DNA of 64,000 nt, taken from contig DASVWD010000057.1 in the NCBI GenBank assembly GCA_036389795.1, positions 22,681-86,680 on the forward strand. Reading direction: 5' to 3'. Source of the stretch: Longimicrobium sp. Its GTDB lineage: Bacteria > Gemmatimonadota > Gemmatimonadetes > Longimicrobiales > Longimicrobiaceae. This document shows, one piece after another, positions 2-21,732 of the stretch (its first letter is position 1; each line of letters begins with the position of its first letter). The position numbers were made by a program, and so were the translations under genes. Below the pieces are notes generated by a model. That model did not search any database. It was not told the DNA's origin and worked only from the letters and a program-made list of their open reading frames with translations.

Positions 2-706
2 GCCGTGCCGGTGCGCATGGAGGTGATCTGCGTCGACGACGCCTCCACCGACGGCACCCGCGCGGTGCTGGAGGCGCTGCACCGCGAGGGGCTCGTCCAC
101 CACCTCCTGCTGCACCCCGAGAACCGGGGGAAGGGCTCGGCGGTGCGCACGGGGATCCAGCACGCCACGGGCGACGTGGTGGTGGTGCACGACGCCGACC
201 TGGAGTACGACCCGTTCGACCTGCCGCGCCTGCTGGAGCCGATCGCCGACGGGCGCGCCGACGCGGTGTTCGGCAGCCGCTTCCTGGGCAGCCCCCGGCG
301 CGTGCTCTACTTCTGGCACCGGGTGGGCAACGGGGTGCTGACGCTCCTCTCCAACATGATGACCGACCTGAACCTCACCGACATGGAGACGTGCTACAAG
401 ATGGTCCGCGCGGACCTCCTGAAGCGCCTCCCCCTGAAGACGAAGCGGTTCGGGATCGAGCCCGAGCTCACCGCGCGCCTGGCCCAGGCGCAGGCGCGCG
501 TGTACGAGGTGCCGATCAGCTACGACGGCCGCACCTACGCCGAGGGGAAGAAGATCGGCTGGCGCGACGGGATCGCGGCGTTCTGGCACATCGCGCGGGC
601 CAACTTCTTCCGCCCCCGGAGCGTCCCCTCCGCCCGCGACCTGCCGGCGGTGGGCGACGGCCCCTCGGTGTTCCGCCCCGTCCCTTTCGTGAGGGCCGCC
701 GGCTGA
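2..706 (+). CDS. Family 2 glycosyltransferase (DPM1/GtrB-like GT-A fold), 5' end cut by the window edge
   Basis: ORF 5..706 is open back to base 2. Motifs ICVDDASTDGT, NRGKGSAV and DADLEYDP (DxD) are typical of GT2. High GC3. Confidence 0.85.
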   Translation, partial: AVPVRMEVICVDDASTDGTRAVLEALHREGLVHHLLLHPENRGKGSAVRTGIQHATGDVVVVHDADLEYDPFDLPRLLEPIADGRADAVFGSRFLGSPRRVLYFWHRVGNGVLTLLSNMMTDLNLTDMETCYKMVRADLLKRLPLKTKRFGIEPELTARLAQAQARVYEVPISYDGRTYAEGKKIGWRDGIAAFWHIARANFFRPRSVPSARDLPAVGDGPSVFRPVPFVRAAG

Positions 707-751: not shown

Positions 752-798
752 GCGGGCGGCGGAGCTCTCCCACGGGCTCCGCCGCCCGCCGCTTTTTC
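752..798 (+). terminator. Rho-independent terminator after the GT2 gene
   Basis: 14-bp perfect stem GCGGGCGGCGGAGC / GCTCCGCCGCCCGC, 10-nt loop, then CGCTTTTT. Confidence 0.7.
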
Positions 799-995
799 GT
801 CTCCCGCGGAAATCCGCCCCGCGCGCGGGTTCCCGGCCTTCCTGCAGCCAGGGCCGAGCCTCGCCCGCTCCCGGCACCCGTCCTGCTCCACCCCGCCGCA
901 GCCGTTTCCGGCCCGAACGCACGCAGCGAGGACGAGACCTGTCCCGCGGCGGGCGGAATCCGGGCACGCGCTTCCCCCCTGACCGGAGCAGGCGG

Positions 996-1199
996 ATGAA
1001 GAAGCTCAAGCTGGAGATCGACGACCTGGCCGTGGAGTCGTTCGCGCCGGGCGAGGGGTCCGGACCGGGCGGCGGGACGGTGCACGGGCTGGAGCTGGGG
1101 CCCACGATCCCGAGCTGCCCCTCGTTCAACCTCTGCCCCACCGACGACTGCCCGACGCCGGGATGTCCGACGAGCGACACCACCCTCTGCCGCTGCTGA
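996..1199 (+). CDS. Putative RiPP precursor peptide P1 (67 aa, 6 Cys)
   Basis: ATG at 996, in frame inside track ORF 750..1199. GGAG lies 8 nt upstream. Sequence MKKLKLEIDDLAVESF...GTVHGLE...SCPSFNLCPTDDCPTPGCPTSDTTLCRC. Very high GC3. Paralog of P2. Confidence 0.75.
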   Translation: MKKLKLEIDDLAVESFAPGEGSGPGGGTVHGLELGPTIPSCPSFNLCPTDDCPTPGCPTSDTTLCRC

Positions 1200-1212
1200 C
1201 GAGGAGGCCCCG

Positions 1213-1413
1213 ATGAAGAAGCTGAAGCTGGAGCTGGACGAGCTGGCCGTGGAGTCGTTCGCGCCCGGCACGGACGCCGAGGCGGAGGGCGGCACCGTCC
1301 ACGGGCGGGAGATGGCGCCGACGCGGAGCTGCCCCTCGCTCGACATCTGCCCCACCGACCTCTGCCTGACGCCGGCGTGCCCGACGAGCTCGACCACCCT
1401 CTGCCGCTGCTGA
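1213..1413 (+). CDS. Putative RiPP precursor peptide P2 (66 aa, 6 Cys)
   Basis: Track ORF. GAGGAGG Shine-Dalgarno. Sequence MKKLKLELDELAVESF...GTVHGRE...SCPSLDICPTDLCLTPACPTSSTTLCRC. Confidence 0.8.
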   Translation: MKKLKLELDELAVESFAPGTDAEAEGGTVHGREMAPTRSCPSLDICPTDLCLTPACPTSSTTLCRC

Positions 1414-1425
1414 CCGGGAGGTCGG

Positions 1426-1614
1426 ATGAAGAAGCTGAAGCTGGACCTGGACGGGCTGGCGGTCGACTCGTTCGCGACCCTGGCCGGGACCGCGCACCGG
1501 GGGACCGTGGACGGGCGCGAGCCGCGGCCGACGCTCGAGACCATCTGCGGCAGCACGTGGCTGGTGTCGAACCCCACCTGCCGCCCCTGCACCCCACGCT
1601 ACCAGGAGGGCTGA
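1426..1614 (+). CDS. Putative RiPP precursor peptide P3 (62 aa, 3 Cys)
   Basis: Track ORF. GGGAGG Shine-Dalgarno. Sequence MKKLKLDLDGLAVDSF...GTVDGRE...ICGSTWLVSNPTCRPCTPRYQEG. Confidence 0.8.
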   Translation: MKKLKLDLDGLAVDSFATLAGTAHRGTVDGREPRPTLETICGSTWLVSNPTCRPCTPRYQEG

Positions 1615-1617
1615 GCG

Positions 1618-1806
1618 ATGAAGAAGCTGAAGCTGGCGCTGGAAGACCTCGCCGTCGATTCCTTCTCGACCCTGTCCGAGACGGCCGGCCGCGGGACCGT
1701 GGACGGGCGCGAGGCGATCCCCACCATCCGCCCCGTCTGCGGCAGCACGCTCCTCGTGTCGGACCCGACGTGCTGCCCGTGCACGCCGCGCTACGAGGAG
1801 GGCTGA
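1618..1806 (+). CDS. Putative RiPP precursor peptide P4 (62 aa, 4 Cys)
   Basis: Track ORF. The AGGAGGG Shine-Dalgarno is embedded in the last codons of P3. Sequence MKKLKLALEDLAVDSF...GTVDGRE...VCGSTLLVSDPTCCPCTPRYEEG. Confidence 0.8.
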   Translation: MKKLKLALEDLAVDSFSTLSETAGRGTVDGREAIPTIRPVCGSTLLVSDPTCCPCTPRYEEG

Positions 1807-1809
1807 GCG

Positions 1810-1989
1810 ATGCGGAAGCTCAAGCTGGAGCTGGAGGAGCTGGCGGTCGACACCTTCGCCACCCTCCCCGAGACGGCCGGGCGCGGCACCGTCGGCGCCC
1901 GGGAGGAGGTGCCGACGCTGCGCACCGTGTGCAGCCCTTCGCTGCTCGACTCGAACCCGACCTGCTGTCCGTGGAGGTGTGAAGGATGA
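1810..1989 (+). CDS. Putative RiPP precursor peptide P5 (59 aa, 4 Cys); not in the supplied ORF track
   Basis: Hand translation from ATG 1810: MRKLKLELEELAVDTFATLPETAGRGTVGAREEVPTLRTVCSPSLLDSNPTCCPWRCEG, stop TGA at 1987-1989. The Shine-Dalgarno lies in the last codons of P4. Confidence 0.75.
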   Translation: MRKLKLELEELAVDTFATLPETAGRGTVGAREEVPTLRTVCSPSLLDSNPTCCPWRCEG

Positions 1990-2162
1990 AGAAGCTCACG
2001 CTGGAGATCGACGAGCTGGCGGTCGAGACCTTCGCGGCCGACGGGGACGCCGGGATGGACGCCGGCACCGTCGAGGGGCAGGAGCTCGCGCCGACCATTC
2101 TCAAGCTGTGCACCGCGATGACGGGCCTCTGCCCCTGCACCCCGCACGCGGCGGACTTCTGA
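1986..2162 (+). CDS. Putative RiPP precursor peptide P6 (58 aa, 3 Cys); not in the supplied ORF track
   Basis: Hand translation from ATG 1986, which overlaps the P5 stop as ATGA: MKKLTLEIDELAVETFAADGDAGMDAGTVEGQELAPTILKLCTAMTGLCPCTPHAADF, stop at 2160-2162. GGAGG Shine-Dalgarno upstream. Confidence 0.7.
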   Translation: MKKLTLEIDELAVETFAADGDAGMDAGTVEGQELAPTILKLCTAMTGLCPCTPHAADF

Positions 2163-2166
2163 TAAA

Positions 2167-2253
2167 CAGAGTCCGGCAAAGACTTGTCTCACGCAGAGTC
2201 AGCAGCGTCAGCGGAGGGTTTTCTCTGCTGACTCTGCTGACTCTGCGTGAGGC
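2167..2253. repeat. Repeat family D copy 1 (about 90 bp; long hairpin with 9-nt tandem units); probable terminator of the peptide array
   Basis: Sequence CAGAGTCCGGCAAAG...CTCACGCAGAGTCAGCAGCGTCAGCGGAG / CTCTGCTGACTCTGCTGACTCTGCGTGAG. Hairpin at 2188-2251, starting 5 nt after the P6 stop. A second copy in inverse orientation is at 60107-60204. Confidence 0.8.
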
Positions 2254-2282
2254 TATGTCTTGTTTTCTGTTTTCCGAACGAC

Positions 2283-2499: not shown

Positions 2500-2937
2500 T
2501 CAGTGCCCGGTGGAGCCGAAGCCTCCGGTGCCGCGGCCGCTCTCGCTCAGCTCGGCGGCCTCGGCGATCGTGGGGACCTCGAAGCGCGCGAAGACGAGTT
2601 GGGCGATGCGGGTGCCGCGCGGGACCGGCACCGGCTCCGCGCCCGAGTTCCAGACGATCACGCGCAGCTCGCCGCGGTAGTCGGGGTCGATGGTGGCGGG
2701 CGAGTTGGGGAGCATGATCCCGTGCCGGAGCGCCAGCCCCGAGCGCGGGCGCACCTGGCACTCCACGTCGGGCGGCAGCTCCATCTCCAGCCCCGTGTGC
2801 ACCAGCCGCCGCTCGCCCGGCTGCAGCACGAAGTCAGGCTCGGCGCTGGCCACGTCGAAGCCCGCCGCGCCGGGCGTGGCGCGGGAGGGCAGCGGGAGGT
2901 CGGGGTTGCTCGGCAGGCGGCGGAAGCGGACTTCCAT
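2500..2937 (-). CDS. dut: dUTP diphosphatase
   Basis: 145 aa. Motifs AAGFDV, RSGLALRHGI, IDPDYRGEL and GTGGFGSTG. Confidence 0.95.
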   Translation of the reverse strand: MEVRFRRLPSNPDLPLPSRATPGAAGFDVASAEPDFVLQPGERRLVHTGLEMELPPDVECQVRPRSGLALRHGIMLPNSPATIDPDYRGELRVIVWNSGAEPVPVPRGTRIAQLVFARFEVPTIAEAAELSESGRGTGGFGSTGH

Positions 2938-18392: not shown

Positions 18393-18550
18393 CCGAAACA
18401 GACGATCCGCCCGCGAGGCGCCCGTCGATCTCCGAACGGAAGCAAAATATAGGCCCTGGCTCGCGGAAGAGCAACCCTGAGAGGGACGAAGCCCACCGGC
18501 GCCGCCAGATCGGCGTGGACGAGGGGGGAGGAACCGTTCGGATGCACCCG

Positions 18551-19180
18551 CTAGACCAGCCCGATGCCGTAGCGGTCCAGCCATTCCGCGAGCTCCTCCG
18601 CTCCCTCCGGCGCCAGCAGCCCGCGCGTACCCACCTCCGCGGCGGCGTCCGCCGCACGGTCGAACAGCGCGACCGCGAAGCCGTCGTCGTCGTGGCGCGC
18701 GCGGTAGCGGATCCCGTCGGGCCGGTCGGGATGCTCGTGGAGCGCGAGCGCCCACCTCCGCGACACGTCGTACGGGCCCATGCAGACCGACGCCGTCGCC
18801 CCGAGGCGCGCCAGCCCCGCGCCGTGCAGCGCGACAAGGCGGAGGTCGCGCTCGACGCGGACGCGGGCGATGGCGCGGTCCGCGACGTCGACCGCTTCCA
18901 CCAGCGGGCGGCCGGGCTCCCGGAGCAGCGTCTCGGCGAAGGCGACGAACGACGCCTCGCCCAGGTAGCAGACGCGGAACTCCCCGCCGGGCGCGTCCCA
19001 CCGCCCGCGGGGCGGCCTGCCCGGCGGCGGGCCGAAGAAGACGGCTTCCCGCCCGACCCGGTGGATCCGGAACAGCTCCGTCCCCGCCGGTGAGACGTGC
19101 AGCGGGAGCGGGCGCCGGTCCAGGTCGCCCGGTGGCGGCGGAGGCGGTCCGGGCTCGCCGGCGCCGCGGGCCGCGGTCAA
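18551..19180 (-). CDS. RES-domain toxin (MbcT/ParT-like NAD+-targeting family)
   Basis: Sequence ELFRIHR...GRWDAPGGEFRVCYLGEASFVAFAETL. Start proposed at a TTG overlapping the antitoxin stop (TTGA). The track ORF runs to 19309 through an Arg/Pro-rich overlap. The position comes from ORF-track frame arithmetic; my hand count of the printed bases was ambiguous by 1 nt. Confidence 0.8.
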   Translation of the reverse strand: MTAARGAGEPGPPPPPPGDLDRRPLPLHVSPAGTELFRIHRVGREAVFFGPPPGRPPRGRWDAPGGEFRVCYLGEASFVAFAETLLREPGRPLVEAVDVADRAIARVRVERDLRLVALHGAGLARLGATASVCMGPYDVSRRWALALHEHPDRPDGIRYRARHDDDGFAVALFDRAADAAAEVGTRGLLAPEGAEELAEWLDRYGIGLV

Positions 19181-19869
19181 GCCAGGTGCTCTCCGTAGGT
19201 GGAGGCGGCCAGGACGGCGCCGTCGGCGTCGCCCTCGCGCAGCGCGTCGAGCGGGGTGCGGCCGCCCAGGACGTCGGCGGGGGCGAGCAGGACGGAGAGG
19301 CGGGTCCACGGCCCCCGCACCCCGAACGCCTGGAGCACGCGGGAGAGCCCGGCCAGGGTGCCGTCTTCGGTGAACTGGAAGGCGGGATACACGAACTCGC
19401 CGTTCGCCCTGGGCACCGCCAGCAGGGTGCCGCGCTGGCGGCGGGCGTGGACGGCGGCCGGGGTCACCCCGAGCTTCTCCGCCACCTGGCCCGCGGAAAG
19501 GCCTCCACCCGCGCGCTCGAGGAGCTCCACCTTCGCGCGCGCACCCCGCGCCCGGGCCGCGGCGAGCGGGTCCCGCGCCGGCGGGGCGATCGGTCCCACT
19601 TCGGCCAGGAGCCCGGCGAGCCCGCCCACGTCGTCGGCGGCCGCCAGCGCGTGCTTGATCGACTCGGCGGGAGCGGCTTCCACCAGGCGTTCGAGCAGCT
19701 GATGGTAGCGGCGCACGAAGGCGTCCGCCAGGTCGCTCCGCCCGGCCCGGGCTTCCCCCGCACGCGGGCTGCTTCGCAGGACGAGGTGCAGCCGTCCGCG
19801 GCGCGCCTTTCCCCGGGCCTTGCGGGTTTTTGCCGTCTCGGCGGCGGGCGTGTGCTTCGATTTCGGCAT
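19177..19869 (-). CDS. Xre/MbcA/ParS-type antitoxin (HTH plus DUF2384 toxin-binding domain)
   Basis: Sequence LSAGQVAEKLGVTPAAVHARRQRGTLL (HTH). C-terminal region ...APADVLGGRTPLDALREGDADGAV. Start at ATG 19869 (GGAG upstream); the alternative start is 19908. Confidence 0.8.
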   Translation of the reverse strand: MPKSKHTPAAETAKTRKARGKARRGRLHLVLRSSPRAGEARAGRSDLADAFVRRYHQLLERLVEAAPAESIKHALAAADDVGGLAGLLAEVGPIAPPARDPLAAARARGARAKVELLERAGGGLSAGQVAEKLGVTPAAVHARRQRGTLLAVPRANGEFVYPAFQFTEDGTLAGLSRVLQAFGVRGPWTRLSVLLAPADVLGGRTPLDALREGDADGAVLAASTYGEHLA

Positions 19870-19961
19870 GGCGGCTCCGCGCAGGCGGTCGTTTGACACC
19901 ATCAACATACCACTGCCTGACTCACGGAGTCAACGTCAGGGAGATGATGGTGGACCTGTAA

Positions 19962-20840
19962 TCAATCCGCTGCGCGCTCCCGCCCGGCGTCCGCGCGCCC
20001 GGCGTCGGGCTCCTCGTCGCCCGAGGGCCAGTAGTAGCGCCGCATCTGCGCGGCGACGCCGTCGAGGTCGGGGAAGAGCTTGCGCTCGTCGATGGCGCAG
20101 AGGTCGAGCTGGTCGCGCACGTAGTTCACGCGGCCCGCCGGGATGATGTAGCGGGTGAGCGCGTCCACCAGCCCCTCCTGCCGCAGGATCTCGTCGAACG
20201 CGTGCGTCTTGTCGGTCGAGAAGGTGAAGGTGGCGGCCTGCGCGATGATGCGGTCGTCCAGCGCCGGCGGGTCGAGCATGCAGACGAAGCGGGCCGCGCG
20301 CGGCACCTCGTCGCCCAGGAGCTGGCGCAGGTCGCGGATGCCGCGCTCGCGGAGCATGGCGTCCAGGTCTTCCACCAGGAACGCCAGCGGCGGCAGGCCG
20401 AAGTGCTCGTGCACCTTCCGCCAGTTGAGCCGCCACACCACCCGGTCGCCCTCGCACTCGCCGCCCAGCGTGGCGAAGTGCGCGGCGATGAGCGGCGAGT
20501 AGCTCCAGTCCAGCAGCCGCGTGGGCAGCCCGTGGTGCTGCGCGGTCACCAGCAGCTCCCACTCGTTGGCGGGCTGGTGCTCCAGGAACGGGCGCGAGTA
20601 GCGGATGAAGTTGCGGAGGATGTGCTCCTCCAGGTGGCGCTTGCTGTGTGGCGGACGGGTCCCCCCCAGCCGGTCCAGGCTGGTGAGCAGCGGATAGCGC
20701 GCGTCGCCGGCGCCGCGGTACACCGAGGTGTCGCGGATGCGCCCGCTCACCGGGTCGTGCTCGTCGGGCGTCACCCGGTCCAGCAGCTCGCCCAGGCTCT
20801 CGATGCGGACTTCCTCGATGTCGTCGAAACGCGTCTCCAT
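19962..20840 (-). CDS. FRG-domain protein
   Basis: Start at the internal ATG (METRFDDIEEV). Motifs VYRGAGDARYPLLTSLDR and QHHGLPTRLLDWSYSPLIAAHFA are the FRG signature as I remember it. Confidence 0.75.
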   Translation of the reverse strand: METRFDDIEEVRIESLGELLDRVTPDEHDPVSGRIRDTSVYRGAGDARYPLLTSLDRLGGTRPPHSKRHLEEHILRNFIRYSRPFLEHQPANEWELLVTAQHHGLPTRLLDWSYSPLIAAHFATLGGECEGDRVVWRLNWRKVHEHFGLPPLAFLVEDLDAMLRERGIRDLRQLLGDEVPRAARFVCMLDPPALDDRIIAQAATFTFSTDKTHAFDEILRQEGLVDALTRYIIPAGRVNYVRDQLDLCAIDERKLFPDLDGVAAQMRRYYWPSGDEEPDAGRADAGRERAAD

Positions 20841-21074
20841 GCGCCCATCCGCGGCCGGTCCACGGCGCGGAGGATGGAAGAAGCGTTCCGGACGCTCCAG
20901 GTAGAGTACAGGAGAGAAGGTGCTCGATCCCGCCTGCTTCCAGGAAGATGCAAATCCTTTCACGGCGTGGAAGAAAATCTTCCACGCGATGGAAGGTGTC
21001 GGTCGGGCTAGAGATTGGTGACGGAGAACGCCGTGATTTTACCGGTTAAAATCACAGGCGGGCGGTATCCAGGA

Positions 21075-21302
21075 TCATGCGGCATCCCGATGAGCGCGGA
21101 TGACCGCAGCCATCGCCCGGAGGGCACGGTTCACCGACTCCGCGTCGGGGAATACATCGGCCACTTCGGGGTCGATCGGCACCAGGTTCACCCCTTCGGC
21201 GTAGCGGGCGGCGAACCTGCCCCGCACTCCGGCCCGAAGCTCCTCGGCGGTGAAGCCGTACTCCTCCCGCAGATCGTCCTCAGAGATCGATGCTTTGCTC
21301 AT
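21075..21302 (-). CDS. brnA: BrnA-like antitoxin
   Basis: 75 aa. Sequence EYGFT..ELRAGVRGRFAARYAEGVNLVPIDPEVADVFPDAESVNRALRAM. Overlaps brnT by 23 nt. Confidence 0.75.
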   Translation of the reverse strand: MSKASISEDDLREEYGFTAEELRAGVRGRFAARYAEGVNLVPIDPEVADVFPDAESVNRALRAMAAVIRAHRDAA

Positions 21303-21567
21303 AGCTCCTCCTCTCGCGCGGCGTCATCAGTCTCGCGCTGATCAAGCGTACCGTATCACCACGGTATGTCAAGCTGACGATCAAGAACCGGCCCGCAGAG
21401 GACCGGCCGAAAAGCAGGAGACGCTCCTCGGTCTCCGAGTGATCCGGATCGGGCCGGTCGGTCGAGAGCGGATCGCCCAAAACCGTAGCGGCTTCTCCGA
21501 ACGATACGCCGTGCTTCCGCAGGTTCTGCTCTGCTTTCTCCGAATCCCACTCGACGCGTAGTCCCAT
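21280..21567 (-). CDS. brnT: BrnT (DUF497) toxin
   Basis: Sequence VEWDSEKAEQNLRKHGVSFGEAATVLGDP...DPDHSETEERLLLFG...RLISARLMTPRERRSY. Confidence 0.88.
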   Translation of the reverse strand: MGLRVEWDSEKAEQNLRKHGVSFGEAATVLGDPLSTDRPDPDHSETEERLLLFGRSSAGRFLIVSLTYRGDTVRLISARLMTPRERRSYEQSIDL

Positions 21568-21732
21568 TTCGCCAATGTGAAAGCGGATCCATCTCCAAGC
21601 AAGAACAGCCCCACAAACCAGTTCGTTCAGTCAGCGCTCAGAAAAGAAAAGCCGGGAGCATCACACACTCAAAACCGACGTGTGATGATCCCGGACTCTG
21701 CTCGCCGCGCCGCCTCCTGCCGCTGGATGAGG

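What the first reader, a model, noticed from the sequence alone, without database searches (positions are those of the whole stretch)
996..2162. Six tandem leader-plus-Cys-rich-core mini-ORFs: candidate RiPP precursor array with no maturase in view
Directly seen:
- Six same-strand ORFs of 58-67 codons are packed with gaps of 13, 12, 3 and 3 nt and a 4-nt ATGA overlap.
- Each has its own GGAGG-type Shine-Dalgarno. For P4, P5 and P6 it is embedded in the last codons of the preceding ORF.
- GC3 is very high in all six.
- The first 16 residues are almost invariant: M-[KR]-K-L-[KT]-L-x-[LI]-[DE]-x-L-A-V-[ED]-[ST]-F. A variable acidic/Gly linker follows, ending in G-T-V-x-[GA]-x-E.
- The C-termini are hypervariable and rich in Cys/Ser/Thr/Pro, with 3-6 Cys and recurring CPT/CPx motifs. 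They fall into pairs: P1/P2 (...CPTDxCxTPxCPTSxTTLCRC), P3/P4 (...CGSTxLVSxPTCxPCTPRYxEG), and the looser P5 and P6.
- None has a signal peptide.
- P5 and P6 are below the ORF-track length cut-off, and P1 is hidden inside a longer ORF.

Inference: a conserved leader, a hypervariable core and multiple paralogs is the standard architecture of ribosomally synthesised, post-translationally modified peptide precursors. The Ser/Thr plus Cys composition would suit lanthionine/thiopeptide-type or radical-SAM thioether chemistry. The L-x-V-E-S-F leader loosely recalls LanB-type (class I lanthipeptide/thiopeptide) leaders as I remember them.

I recognise no LanB/C/M, radical SAM, YcaO, protease or exporter anywhere in the 64 kb, so the tailoring genes are upstream of base 1, unlinked, or of a new type.
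Basis: partly seen in the sequence, partly recalled or inferred. Interest (0 to 1): 0.85.

Follow-up and report, generated by a model that had tools for sequence, protein, structure and literature searches.

The report
Orphan array of lanthipeptide precursor genes
Six tightly packed small genes in a soil Longimicrobium genome encode precursors of ring-forming (lanthipeptide) natural products of the known pinensin type, but they sit among housekeeping genes, far from the enzymes that would modify them.

Summary
There are six same-strand ORFs (58-67 aa, GC3 0.92-1.00) with their own SD sites. The first 16 residues of the ~32-aa leader are near-invariant, and the cores are Cys/Ser/Thr/Pro-rich. 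A terminator upstream and a very strong hairpin downstream bracket them. No maturase lies from about -9 kb to +62 kb.

The leader is not new. It is a divergent branch of the pinensin-type class I lanthipeptide leader (NCBIfam NF038180). The window peptides score 15-23 bits against a cutoff of 24. Cassette-linked relatives with the same LKLxLDDLxVESF...GTVxG leader score 27-40 bits.

In L. terrae and many metagenomic contigs, peptides with this leader lie inside a cassette: split LanB (Lant_dehydr_N + Lant_dehydr_C), LanC, LanA(s), ABC exporter, HlyD, S8 protease. P2 aligns with the L. terrae cassette LanA through leader and core (E = 9e-10).

The array itself is syntenic. In four other Longimicrobium contigs it lies convergent with dut-ald. 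One relative (MAG GCA_036377595.1) carries such an orphan array on one contig and the cassette, with 10 more precursors, on another.

Best reading: trans-served class I lanthipeptide precursors, analogous to prochlorosins. A cassette in this particular MAG was not found. Moderately interesting; a known kind with an unusual architecture.

The parts
752..789 (+). Intrinsic terminator of the upstream GT2 operon; marks the 5' boundary of the array's transcription unit
   Evidence: 16-bp GC-rich stem followed by a T-run. The GT2 gene ends at 706.
790..995 (+). 5' non-coding region, presumed promoter and 5' UTR of the array; the promoter was not identified
   Evidence: No sigma-70 consensus found. 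Only the SD-proximal CCCCTGACCGGAG is shared with the syntenic arrays. No Rfam family.
996..1199 (+). P1, LanA-like precursor, 67 aa. Putative leader is residues 1-32 (996-1091). Core is ELGPTIPSCPSFNLCPTDDCPTPGCPTSDTTLCRC (6 Cys, 9 Ser/Thr).
   Evidence: Leader HMM 55.7 bits. NF038180 19.8 bits.
1213..1413 (+). P2, LanA-like precursor, 66 aa, same core type as P1 (6 Cys, 10 Ser/Thr)
   Evidence: NF038180 23.2 bits against a cutoff of 24. Aligns with the L. terrae cassette LanA across leader and core, E = 9e-10, with Cys in register.
1426..1614 (+). P3, LanA-like precursor, 62 aa, core ...CGSTWLVSNPTCRPCTPRYQEG (the 'TCxPCTP' type)
   Evidence: Identical to NCBI HEX8692104.1 / VF746_06785.
1618..1806 (+). 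P4, LanA-like precursor, 62 aa, core ...NPTCCPCTPRY type; translationally coupled (3-nt gap)
   Evidence: The C[CRD]PCTP motif occurs in 61 of 173 family peptides.
1810..1989 (+). P5, LanA-like precursor, 59 aa, core ...SNPTCCPWRCEG
   Evidence: Leader HMM 55.9 bits.
1986..2162 (+). P6, LanA-like precursor, 58 aa, core ELAPTILKLCTAMTGLCPCTPHAADF; its start overlaps the P5 stop (ATGA)
   Evidence: Leader HMM 50.4 bits.
2186..2277 (+). Long hairpin (2186-2253) plus U-rich tail (2254-2277); the array's terminator, lying between the convergent array and dut
   Evidence: MFE -74.9 kcal/mol, z = -9.8, and 0 of 200 shuffles fold as well. dut is at 2500-2937 (-).

Best explanation
The six ORFs form one small operon of class I lanthipeptide precursor (LanA) genes of the pinensin type. 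Shown: the coding status, the conserved ~32-aa leader (M-[KR]-K-L-[KT]-L-x-[LI]-[DE]-x-L-A-V-[ED]-[ST]-F...G-T-V-x-[GA]-x), the Cys/Ser/Thr-rich cores, the family's repeated physical linkage elsewhere to a split-LanB/LanC cassette, and the absence of that cassette here. Inferred: the mechanism. The N-terminal L-x-V-E-S-F part of the leader docks the peptide on the Lant_dehydr_N subunit, which glutamylates core Ser/Thr using Glu-tRNA. The separate Lant_dehydr_C subunit eliminates glutamate to give Dha/Dhb. A LanM-like LanC then adds core Cys thiols to form (methyl)lanthionine rings. An ABC exporter with a HlyD adaptor exports the product, and a subtilisin (S8) removes the leader, probably just after the G-T-V-x-[GA]-x motif. 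All these enzymes would be encoded at an unlinked locus and would serve this array and other arrays in trans, as ProcM serves the prochlorosin precursors in class II.
For: (1) Leader homology. NF038180 'pinensin family lanthipeptide' is the only NCBIfam hit for P1-P4 (15-23 bits; P5 has one weak thiazolyl_B hit, P6 none; Pfam none), and 34 of 119 family members match it at E <= 0.01. Cassette-linked peptides with the same leader pass its cutoff at 26.7-40.1 bits. (2) Physical linkage of the leader to the cassette. L006 has Lant_dehydr_N, Lant_dehydr_C, LanC and 4 peptides. L. terrae (L030) has LanB-N, LanB-C, LanC, a 51-aa LanA, ABC, HlyD and S8. 22 of 45 LanB loci carry leader-HMM hits, mostly between LanC and the ABC exporter, with up to 14 per cluster. 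(3) Core homology. P2 against the L. terrae cassette LanA gives E = 9e-10 with Cys aligned. A related 'TxCCPxT' motif occurs in cassette LanAs. (4) Composition. Cys is 16% of cores against 0.3% of leaders, and Ser+Thr >= Cys in 153 of 167 cores. (5) Same-genome, unlinked co-occurrence. In MAG GCA_036377595.1 a dut-linked orphan array of 7 peptides is on contig 54 (L079), while the cassette with 10 peptides is on contig 103 (L080). Six further MAGs hold both a family peptide and a LanB-N on different contigs, judged by accession proximity. (6) The array is a conserved, selected feature. It occupies the same position next to dut-ald in L022, L024/25 and L079, and dN/dS is below 1.
Against: No LanB or LanC was found for this MAG (VF746). 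None of the 20 NCBI LanB-N hits whose accessions were looked up lies in its accession range; the other ~190 of the 211 hits were not checked this way. No contig of its source metagenome appeared in the LanB scan. All six window peptides fall below the curated pinensin-leader cutoff. No TCCPCTP-type core (P3-P6) was seen inside a cassette, only a looser TxCCPxT relative. There are no expression or mass-spectrometry data. Even for pinensin, modification of PinA by PinB1/B2/PinC is reported as not yet confirmed experimentally (PMC9680876).
Confidence: 0.72

Rival explanations
1. The leader serves only for export and cleavage. The peptides would be secreted through the ABC/HlyD/S8 system as unmodified or disulfide-bonded Cys-rich peptides, such as bacteriocin-like or metal-binding peptides, without lanthionine formation.
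For: Some family cores are extremely Cys-rich (up to 28 Cys, runs such as CCYCCCCCCCCTC), and 14 of 167 have more Cys than Ser+Thr, which lanthionine chemistry alone cannot use up. Pinensins are reported to bind zinc with nanomolar affinity (PMC13532221).
Against: The same leader sits on peptides placed directly between LanC and the exporter in many cassettes. In the window's six cores Ser+Thr exceeds Cys in every case. Metal binding and thioether rings are not mutually exclusive.
Confidence: 0.1
2. The peptides are substrates of a different, unlinked maturase that shares this leader, such as a radical SAM/SPASM thioether enzyme, a YcaO, or an unknown enzyme. Nif11/NHLP leaders are shared between enzyme classes in this way.
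For: A SPASM-type RiPP maturase lies 0.6 kb from two leader peptides in L012. One family member weakly matches the CefA model. P5 weakly matches a thiazolyl peptide model.
Against: The L012 rSAM has its own precursor on its own strand with an unrelated GG-type leader and NNGCTV repeats, and no homologue occurs in any other locus or in the window. The L016 rSAM is a DNA-repair type. No YcaO or pyridine synthase was seen in the cassettes; LanB-C scores 66 bits against a cutoff of 325 for TbtD. About 20 peptide-centred loci showed no other recurrent enzyme.
Confidence: 0.08
3. The array is an orphaned relic in this genome. The cassette has been lost, and the genes are silent or make unprocessed peptides.
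For: No cassette was detected for MAG VF746.
Against: All six ORFs are intact, with SDs, GC3 0.92-1.00 and dN/dS below 1. The array is retained at the same locus in four divergent relatives. 7 of 9 other peptide-bearing MAGs checked do have LanB-N. MAGs are incomplete, and only 120 of the 211 LanB hits were listed.
Confidence: 0.08
4. The ORFs are chance open frames in GC-rich DNA and are not genes.
For: High-GC DNA has many long spurious ORFs.
Against: There are thousands of homologues with the same leader (5,179 representative clusters at E <= 1e-3). Also against it: the SD sites, GC3 near 1.0, dN/dS below 1 and the syntenic conservation.
Confidence: 0.01

Closest known systems
Pinensin system of Chitinophaga pinensis (PinA precursor, split dehydratase PinB1/PinB2, cyclase PinC; NCBIfam NF038180 leader_pinensin)
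   Same: The leader is homologous over the whole 28-position model, including the VESF and GTV parts. The dehydratase is split into Lant_dehydr_N and Lant_dehydr_C proteins. The LanC resembles the LanM cyclase domain, as Walker et al. 2020 describe for the pinensin family I_17 (PMC7268733, PMC9680876).
   Different: The six window peptides score below the curated cutoff (max 23.2 against 24). The phylum is Gemmatimonadota, not Bacteroidota. The precursors here are unlinked to the enzymes, occur as multi-gene arrays, and have unrelated cores.
Prochlorosins (class II; ProcM with many Nif11-leader ProcA genes scattered in Prochlorococcus/Synechococcus genomes)
   Same: How it seems to work: one enzyme set, many precursor genes with a conserved leader and hypervariable cores, many of them encoded away from the enzyme (established knowledge; here).
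   Different: The enzyme class differs (LanM, not split LanB + LanC), the leader family is unrelated (Nif11), and the phylum differs. Trans processing is demonstrated for prochlorosins and only inferred here.
Nisin-type class I lanthipeptides (NisA/NisB/NisC/NisT/NisP)
   Same: The same enzyme logic is inferred: tRNA-Glu-dependent dehydration, Zn-dependent cyclisation, ABC export and a subtilisin leader protease. LanT- and LanP-like genes are present in the cassette.
   Different: NisB is a single polypeptide. The leader motif is FNLD, not L-x-V-E-S-F. The precursor is encoded in the cluster. The Longimicrobium cassette adds a HlyD adaptor (a Gram-negative envelope feature).
Thiopeptide biosynthesis (split LanB TbtB/TbtC-like, with YcaO and pyridine synthase)
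   Same: A split dehydratase. LanB-C matches TIGR03891 'thiopeptide-type bacteriocin biosynthesis protein' (97 bits, cutoff 48). Cores are Cys/Ser/Thr-rich. P5 gives a weak thiazolyl_B hit.
   Different: No YcaO or cyclodehydratase, and no pyridine synthase (TbtD model 66 against 325), in any cassette. A LanC is present instead.

Membership tests
Class I lanthipeptide precursor (LanA) | Short peptide with an N-terminal leader and a C-terminal core containing both Ser/Thr and Cys | tested here: met
   Leader of ~31-32 aa. Cores of 26-35 aa have 3-6 Cys and 4-10 Ser/Thr.
Class I lanthipeptide precursor (LanA) | Encoded next to LanB and LanC | tested here: not met
   None from about -9 kb to +62 kb of the array. 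This is met at family level: L006, L030, L080 and 22 of 45 LanB loci.
Class I lanthipeptide precursor (LanA) | LanB and LanC present in the same genome | tested here: inconclusive
   Not found for MAG VF746 among the 20 NCBI LanB-N hits checked by accession. Found in 7 of 9 other peptide-bearing Longimicrobium MAGs, and explicitly in GCA_036377595.1.
Class I lanthipeptide precursor (LanA) | Dehydrated Ser/Thr and thioether rings in the mature product | not testable with these tools
   Needs mass spectrometry of native or co-expressed peptides.
Pinensin family lanthipeptide leader (NCBIfam NF038180) | Score at or above the curated cutoff of 24 bits | tested here: not met
   P1 19.8, P2 23.2, P3 15.1, P4 15.1, P5 and P6 no hit. 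None of 119 family members passes. Cassette-linked relatives L048, L049, L057 and L075 pass at 26.7-40.1.
Pinensin-type system | Split LanB (separate Lant_dehydr_N and Lant_dehydr_C proteins) with a LanM-like LanC | tested here: met
   Met for the family's cassettes. Not present in the window itself.
Thiopeptide precursor | Co-occurrence with a YcaO/cyclodehydratase and a [4+2] pyridine synthase | tested here: not met
   The cassettes contain neither. LanB-C is far below the TbtD cutoff.
Radical SAM/SPASM-modified peptide (ranthipeptide, sactipeptide or Cef-like) | Recurrent adjacency to an rSAM/SPASM maturase that lacks another precursor | tested here: not met
   Only L012 has one, and it has its own unrelated precursor. 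There are no homologues elsewhere.
Glycocin (SunS-type S-glycosylated peptide) | Functional linkage to a peptide glycosyltransferase | tested here: not met
   The upstream GT2 is a polyprenyl-phosphate glycosyltransferase type (AglJ/PpgS/ArnC-like). It is separated from the array by a terminator and is absent from the syntenic arrays in other genomes.

The most novel reading that the evidence does not exclude
Longimicrobiaceae may run a class I (split-LanB) counterpart of the prochlorosin system. One lanB-N/lanB-C/lanC/ABC/HlyD/S8 cassette per genome would mature a large, fast-diversifying library of precursors spread over several loci (at least 16-17 per genome). The library would include an array fixed beside dut in the core genome, and cores ranging from 3 Cys to poly-Cys or Cys-free repeats. 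This would be the first combinatorial, trans-acting class I lanthipeptide system, and the extreme Cys-rich members could be metal-binding rather than antibiotic.
Probability: 0.45. Interest if true: 0.65.

Novelty: new variant of a known kind. Interest (0 to 1): 0.45.

Why it matters
If the trans model holds, cluster-centred mining tools such as antiSMASH and RODEO would miss most lanthipeptide precursors in this widespread soil lineage, because the precursors lie among housekeeping genes. The split LanB/LanC pair would also have to be very substrate-tolerant, which is useful for peptide engineering. At present the best-known promiscuous lanthipeptide enzyme is the class II ProcM. The family is large (5,179 representative clusters match the profile), is named 'hypothetical' in every source seen, and is not captured by Pfam or by the NCBIfam cutoff. 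A curated leader model would therefore annotate thousands of ORFs. It does not reveal a new chemistry or a new kind of system.

Tried and rejected
1. A maturase just upstream of base 1: rejected. The 10 kb upstream (L001/L002) holds PBP1, an SDR, a flavoprotein, two pilins, PMT_2, a methyltransferase and GT2.
2. The upstream GT2/PMT_2/methyltransferase as peptide-tailoring genes (glycocin-like): rejected. A terminator separates them, they are a lipid-linked glycosylation type, and they are absent from the syntenic arrays.
3. Radical SAM chemistry: two nearby rSAMs were examined. One has its own precursor and the other is a DNA-repair type.
4. Thiopeptide reading: no YcaO or pyridine synthase.
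5. A regulatory RNA in the 5' region: Rfam gives only spurious miRNA hairpin hits, and the upstream alignment shows conservation only near the SD.
6. A sigma-70 promoter: none found.
7. Finding the cassette in the window's own MAG: accessions of 20 NCBI LanB-N hits were compared and none falls in the HEX869xxxx range. The metagenome scan returned no Ga0334945 contig. This remains unresolved.
8. My first dUTPase look-up failed because I mis-set the coordinates.
9. Literature searches for a description of this Longimicrobiaceae precursor family, or of dispersed class I arrays, found nothing beyond an antiSMASH table for L. terrae.
Full report
OBSERVATION. The six ORFs exist exactly as described: 996-1199, 1213-1413, 1426-1614, 1618-1806, 1810-1989 and 1986-2162 on the + strand, of 67, 66, 62, 62, 59 and 58 aa. 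The gaps are 13, 12, 3 and 3 nt, plus a 4-nt ATGA overlap. All use ATG and TGA. GC3 is 0.92-1.00 in a window of 72.5% GC, and each has a GGAG/GGAGG motif 6-13 nt upstream. P1 is nested in a 149-aa ORF, and P5 and P6 are below 60 aa. The alignment shows an almost invariant N-terminus, an invariant G-T-V, and then Cys/Ser/Thr/Pro-rich cores that pair as P1/P2 and P3/P4. A strong terminator (752-789) follows the upstream GT2 gene. A 68-nt hairpin (2186-2253; -74.9 kcal/mol, z = -9.8) with a U-rich tail follows P6. The six genes therefore look like one self-contained transcription unit, convergent with dut. Paralogue dN/dS is 0.2-0.7, with the leader more constrained than the core in P1/P2 (0.47 against 1.10, on small counts). 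Gene callers in three independent assemblies of the same organism called all six.

NO MATURASE NEARBY. Contigs carrying exactly the same peptides gave 10 kb upstream of base 1. It holds PBP1a, an SDR, a flavoprotein, two prepilins, a PMT_2 membrane glycosyltransferase, a methyltransferase and GT2. Pfam-annotated gene maps for the rest of the window show only housekeeping genes. These include dut, ald, a beta-lactamase-fold protein, pnp, rpsO, ribF, truB, rbfA, infB, nusA, rimP, uvrD, serS, rseP, dxr, cdsA, uppS, frr, pyrH, tsf, rpsB, rpsI and rplM, plus a few toxin-antitoxin genes. tblastn with a Longimicrobiaceae LanB-N, LanB-C and LanC finds nothing in the window. The upstream GT2 is a polyprenyl-phosphate glycosyltransferase type, not a peptide glycosyltransferase.

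WHAT THE FAMILY IS. For P1-P4 the only curated-model hit is NCBIfam NF038180, 'pinensin family lanthipeptide' leader, at 15-23 bits against a cutoff of 24. P5 has only a weak thiazolyl_B hit, P6 has none, and Pfam finds nothing. A profile search found 136 relatives, all 'hypothetical' and all named Longimicrobium or Longimicrobiaceae; the window's P3 is NCBI HEX8692104.1 / VF746_06785. Across 173 distinct peptides the leader M-[KR]-K-L-[KTR]-L-x-[LIV]-[DE]-x-L-A-V-[ED]-[ST]-F-x-T...G-T-V carries more than 4 bits at seven positions, while core positions carry under 1.5 bits. Cys is 16% of core residues against 0.3% of leader residues, and Ser+Thr >= Cys in 153 of 167 cores. A profile search of 1.84 billion representatives gives 5,179 clusters at E <= 1e-3, nearly all of 53-107 aa and matched from residue 1. 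Their taxonomy is not given, and this total may include Bacteroidota pinensin-type peptides.

LINK TO ENZYMES. Working from the peptide side, locus L006 has Lant_dehydr_N (1022 aa), Lant_dehydr_C (320 aa) and a LanC with WCHG/CHG motifs, followed by four peptides with this leader. Homologues of that LanB-N number 211 and are nearly all from Longimicrobium, including the type strain. In L. terrae the cassette is LanB-N, LanB-C, LanC (686 aa), a 51-aa peptide, an ABC exporter, HlyD and an S8 protease. The peptide reads MKMRTMRLDVDQLSVESF...CSAIDACPTRLCETSTC. P2 aligns with it through leader and core, with Cys in register, at E = 9e-10. The LanC scores best against the cyclase domain of LanM, and LanB-C matches TIGR03891. 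Walker et al. report both traits for pinensin-type clusters (PMC7268733).

Working from the enzyme side, a metagenome scan with a LanB-N alignment gave 45 loci. A leader HMM hits 22 of them, typically between LanC and the ABC gene, with up to 14 peptides (L046). The same HMM hits only the six ORFs in the window. Loci with 28-35% GC and LanB only 33-35% identical carry the same leader (MKKLKLNLDDLKVESFET...GTVxG). Three of those peptides (L048, L049, L075) and the one from the 61%-GC locus L057 pass the NF038180 cutoff, at 26.7-40.1 bits. So the window's leader is a divergent branch of the known pinensin-type class I leader. The association between this leader and the split LanB is old and robust.

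THE ARRAY IS AN ORPHAN AT A CONSERVED LOCUS. In L022, L024/25 and L079, arrays of 4-7 leader peptides lie in the same place as in the window, convergent with dut-ald. In those genomes the other flank is mreBCD-rodA rather than the GT2 module. None has a cassette within 10 kb. Other arrays (L005, L008, L010 and L011, all from one MAG, at least 16 peptides) also lie among housekeeping genes. Conversely, three complete cassettes (L031/35, L063, L071) have no precursor inside them.

The best same-genome case is MAG GCA_036377595.1. Contig 54 has the dut-linked array of 7 peptides, including P3-like TCCPCTP cores. Contig 103 has LanB-N, LanB-C and LanC, ten leader peptides and the ABC exporter. By accession proximity, six more MAGs hold both a family peptide and a LanB-N on different contigs. 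The window's own MAG has a seventh leader peptide elsewhere (VF746_15595). No LanB from that MAG was identified: none of the 20 NCBI LanB-N hits checked by accession falls in its range.

MECHANISM. This part is inferred from established class I lanthipeptide enzymology. The leader docks the peptide on LanB-N, which glutamylates Ser/Thr using Glu-tRNA. LanB-C eliminates glutamate to give Dha/Dhb. LanC catalyses Cys addition to form the rings. The ABC exporter with HlyD exports the product, and the S8 protease removes the leader, probably just after G-T-V-x-[GA]-x, because Cys-rich sequence begins 2-4 residues after that motif in many members. Here all of these enzymes would act in trans.

RIVALS. 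(a) Export-only, unmodified or disulfide or metal-binding peptides. This is plausible mainly for the poly-Cys members, and pinensins are reported to bind zinc (PMC13532221), but it does not fit the placement of these peptides inside LanBC cassettes. (b) Another maturase. The only RiPP-type rSAM seen nearby (L012) has its own unrelated precursor, and no YcaO was seen. (c) A relic in a genome that has lost the cassette. This cannot be excluded for this MAG, but the intact, selected and syntenic genes argue against it. (d) Chance ORFs: refuted.

COMPARISON AND NOVELTY. The closest known system is pinensin (PinA, split PinB1/B2, PinC). The window peptides fail its curated cutoff by a small margin and differ in phylum, core sequence and genomic arrangement. 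In the way it appears to work, the system resembles the prochlorosins (class II), with many dispersed precursors, a conserved leader and hypervariable cores. The searchable literature contains only an antiSMASH table listing three uncharacterised lanthipeptide regions in L. terrae (PMC7291104). I found no description of this precursor family or of dispersed class I arrays.

VERDICT. This is a real, well-supported set of lanthipeptide precursor genes of a known kind, in an unusual unlinked and syntenic arrangement. Interest is moderate, at 0.45.

Noticed in passing
window 2-706 (+), continuing upstream in L001 5342-9494: The upstream same-strand module has two type IV pilin-like genes, a 575-aa PMT_2/ArnT-like membrane protein, a methyltransferase and a polyprenyl-phosphate GT2. 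It looks like a lipid-linked (possibly pilin) glycosylation module. It is specific to this genome; relatives have mreBCD-rodA at this position instead.
   Followed up: partly
L030 14247-16307; L006 4387-6285; L080 14305-16362: The Longimicrobium LanC is ~685 aa. The cyclase domain (best match: the LanM C-terminal domain) covers about the first 435 residues and is followed by a ~250-aa C-terminal extension for which no separate family match was listed. Its function is unknown; it could be a leader-binding or partner-docking domain.
   Followed up: no
L008 8481-13083: An array of at least 10 leader peptides with extreme cores, such as AYCCYCCCCCCCCTCG..., up to 28 Cys per core and more Cys than Ser/Thr. 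This is hard to reconcile with lanthionine formation alone and may point to metal binding or disulfides.
   Followed up: no
L007 9405-9650: A peptide with the same leader but a Cys-free core made of (DADTTI)n repeats. It cannot form thioethers, so it may be a dehydration-only product or have a different fate.
   Followed up: no
L012 1636-3471 (-): A separate RiPP locus abuts two leader peptides. It has a SPASM-type radical SAM maturase (best match TIGR04463, 182 bits, below its cutoff) with its own precursor, ...ENVSGG-NGVDDVNNGCTVNNGCTV....
   Followed up: partly
window 2186-2253: The terminator hairpin is unusually long (two stems of 20 and 11 bp) and contains internal direct repeats (CTGCTGACTCTG). 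It lies between the convergent array and dut and could terminate both. Rfam's miRNA hits here are artefacts.
   Followed up: partly
window ~18550-21570 (-): A patch of accessory genes sits among the translation genes: a RES-domain protein with an upstream partner, an FRG-domain protein and a BrnT-like toxin. This comes from the Pfam gene map of L027, converted to window coordinates.
   Followed up: no
NCBI HEX8693845.1 / VF746_15595 (not in window): The same MAG encodes a seventh leader-bearing peptide of the P0105 type (...CNNFSCQAGCTFQESCYNPCATG) on another contig. In a relative this peptide is a singleton next to AAA-ATPase and TY-Chap1 genes (L019).
   Followed up: partly
L005 4711-7818; L015 564-4130: Single leader peptides lie next to a 1035-aa BTAD/TPR (SARP-like) regulator (L005), and next to a MarR regulator plus a 1028-aa M14 carboxypeptidase-domain protein (L015). 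These could be regulatory or processing partners.
   Followed up: no
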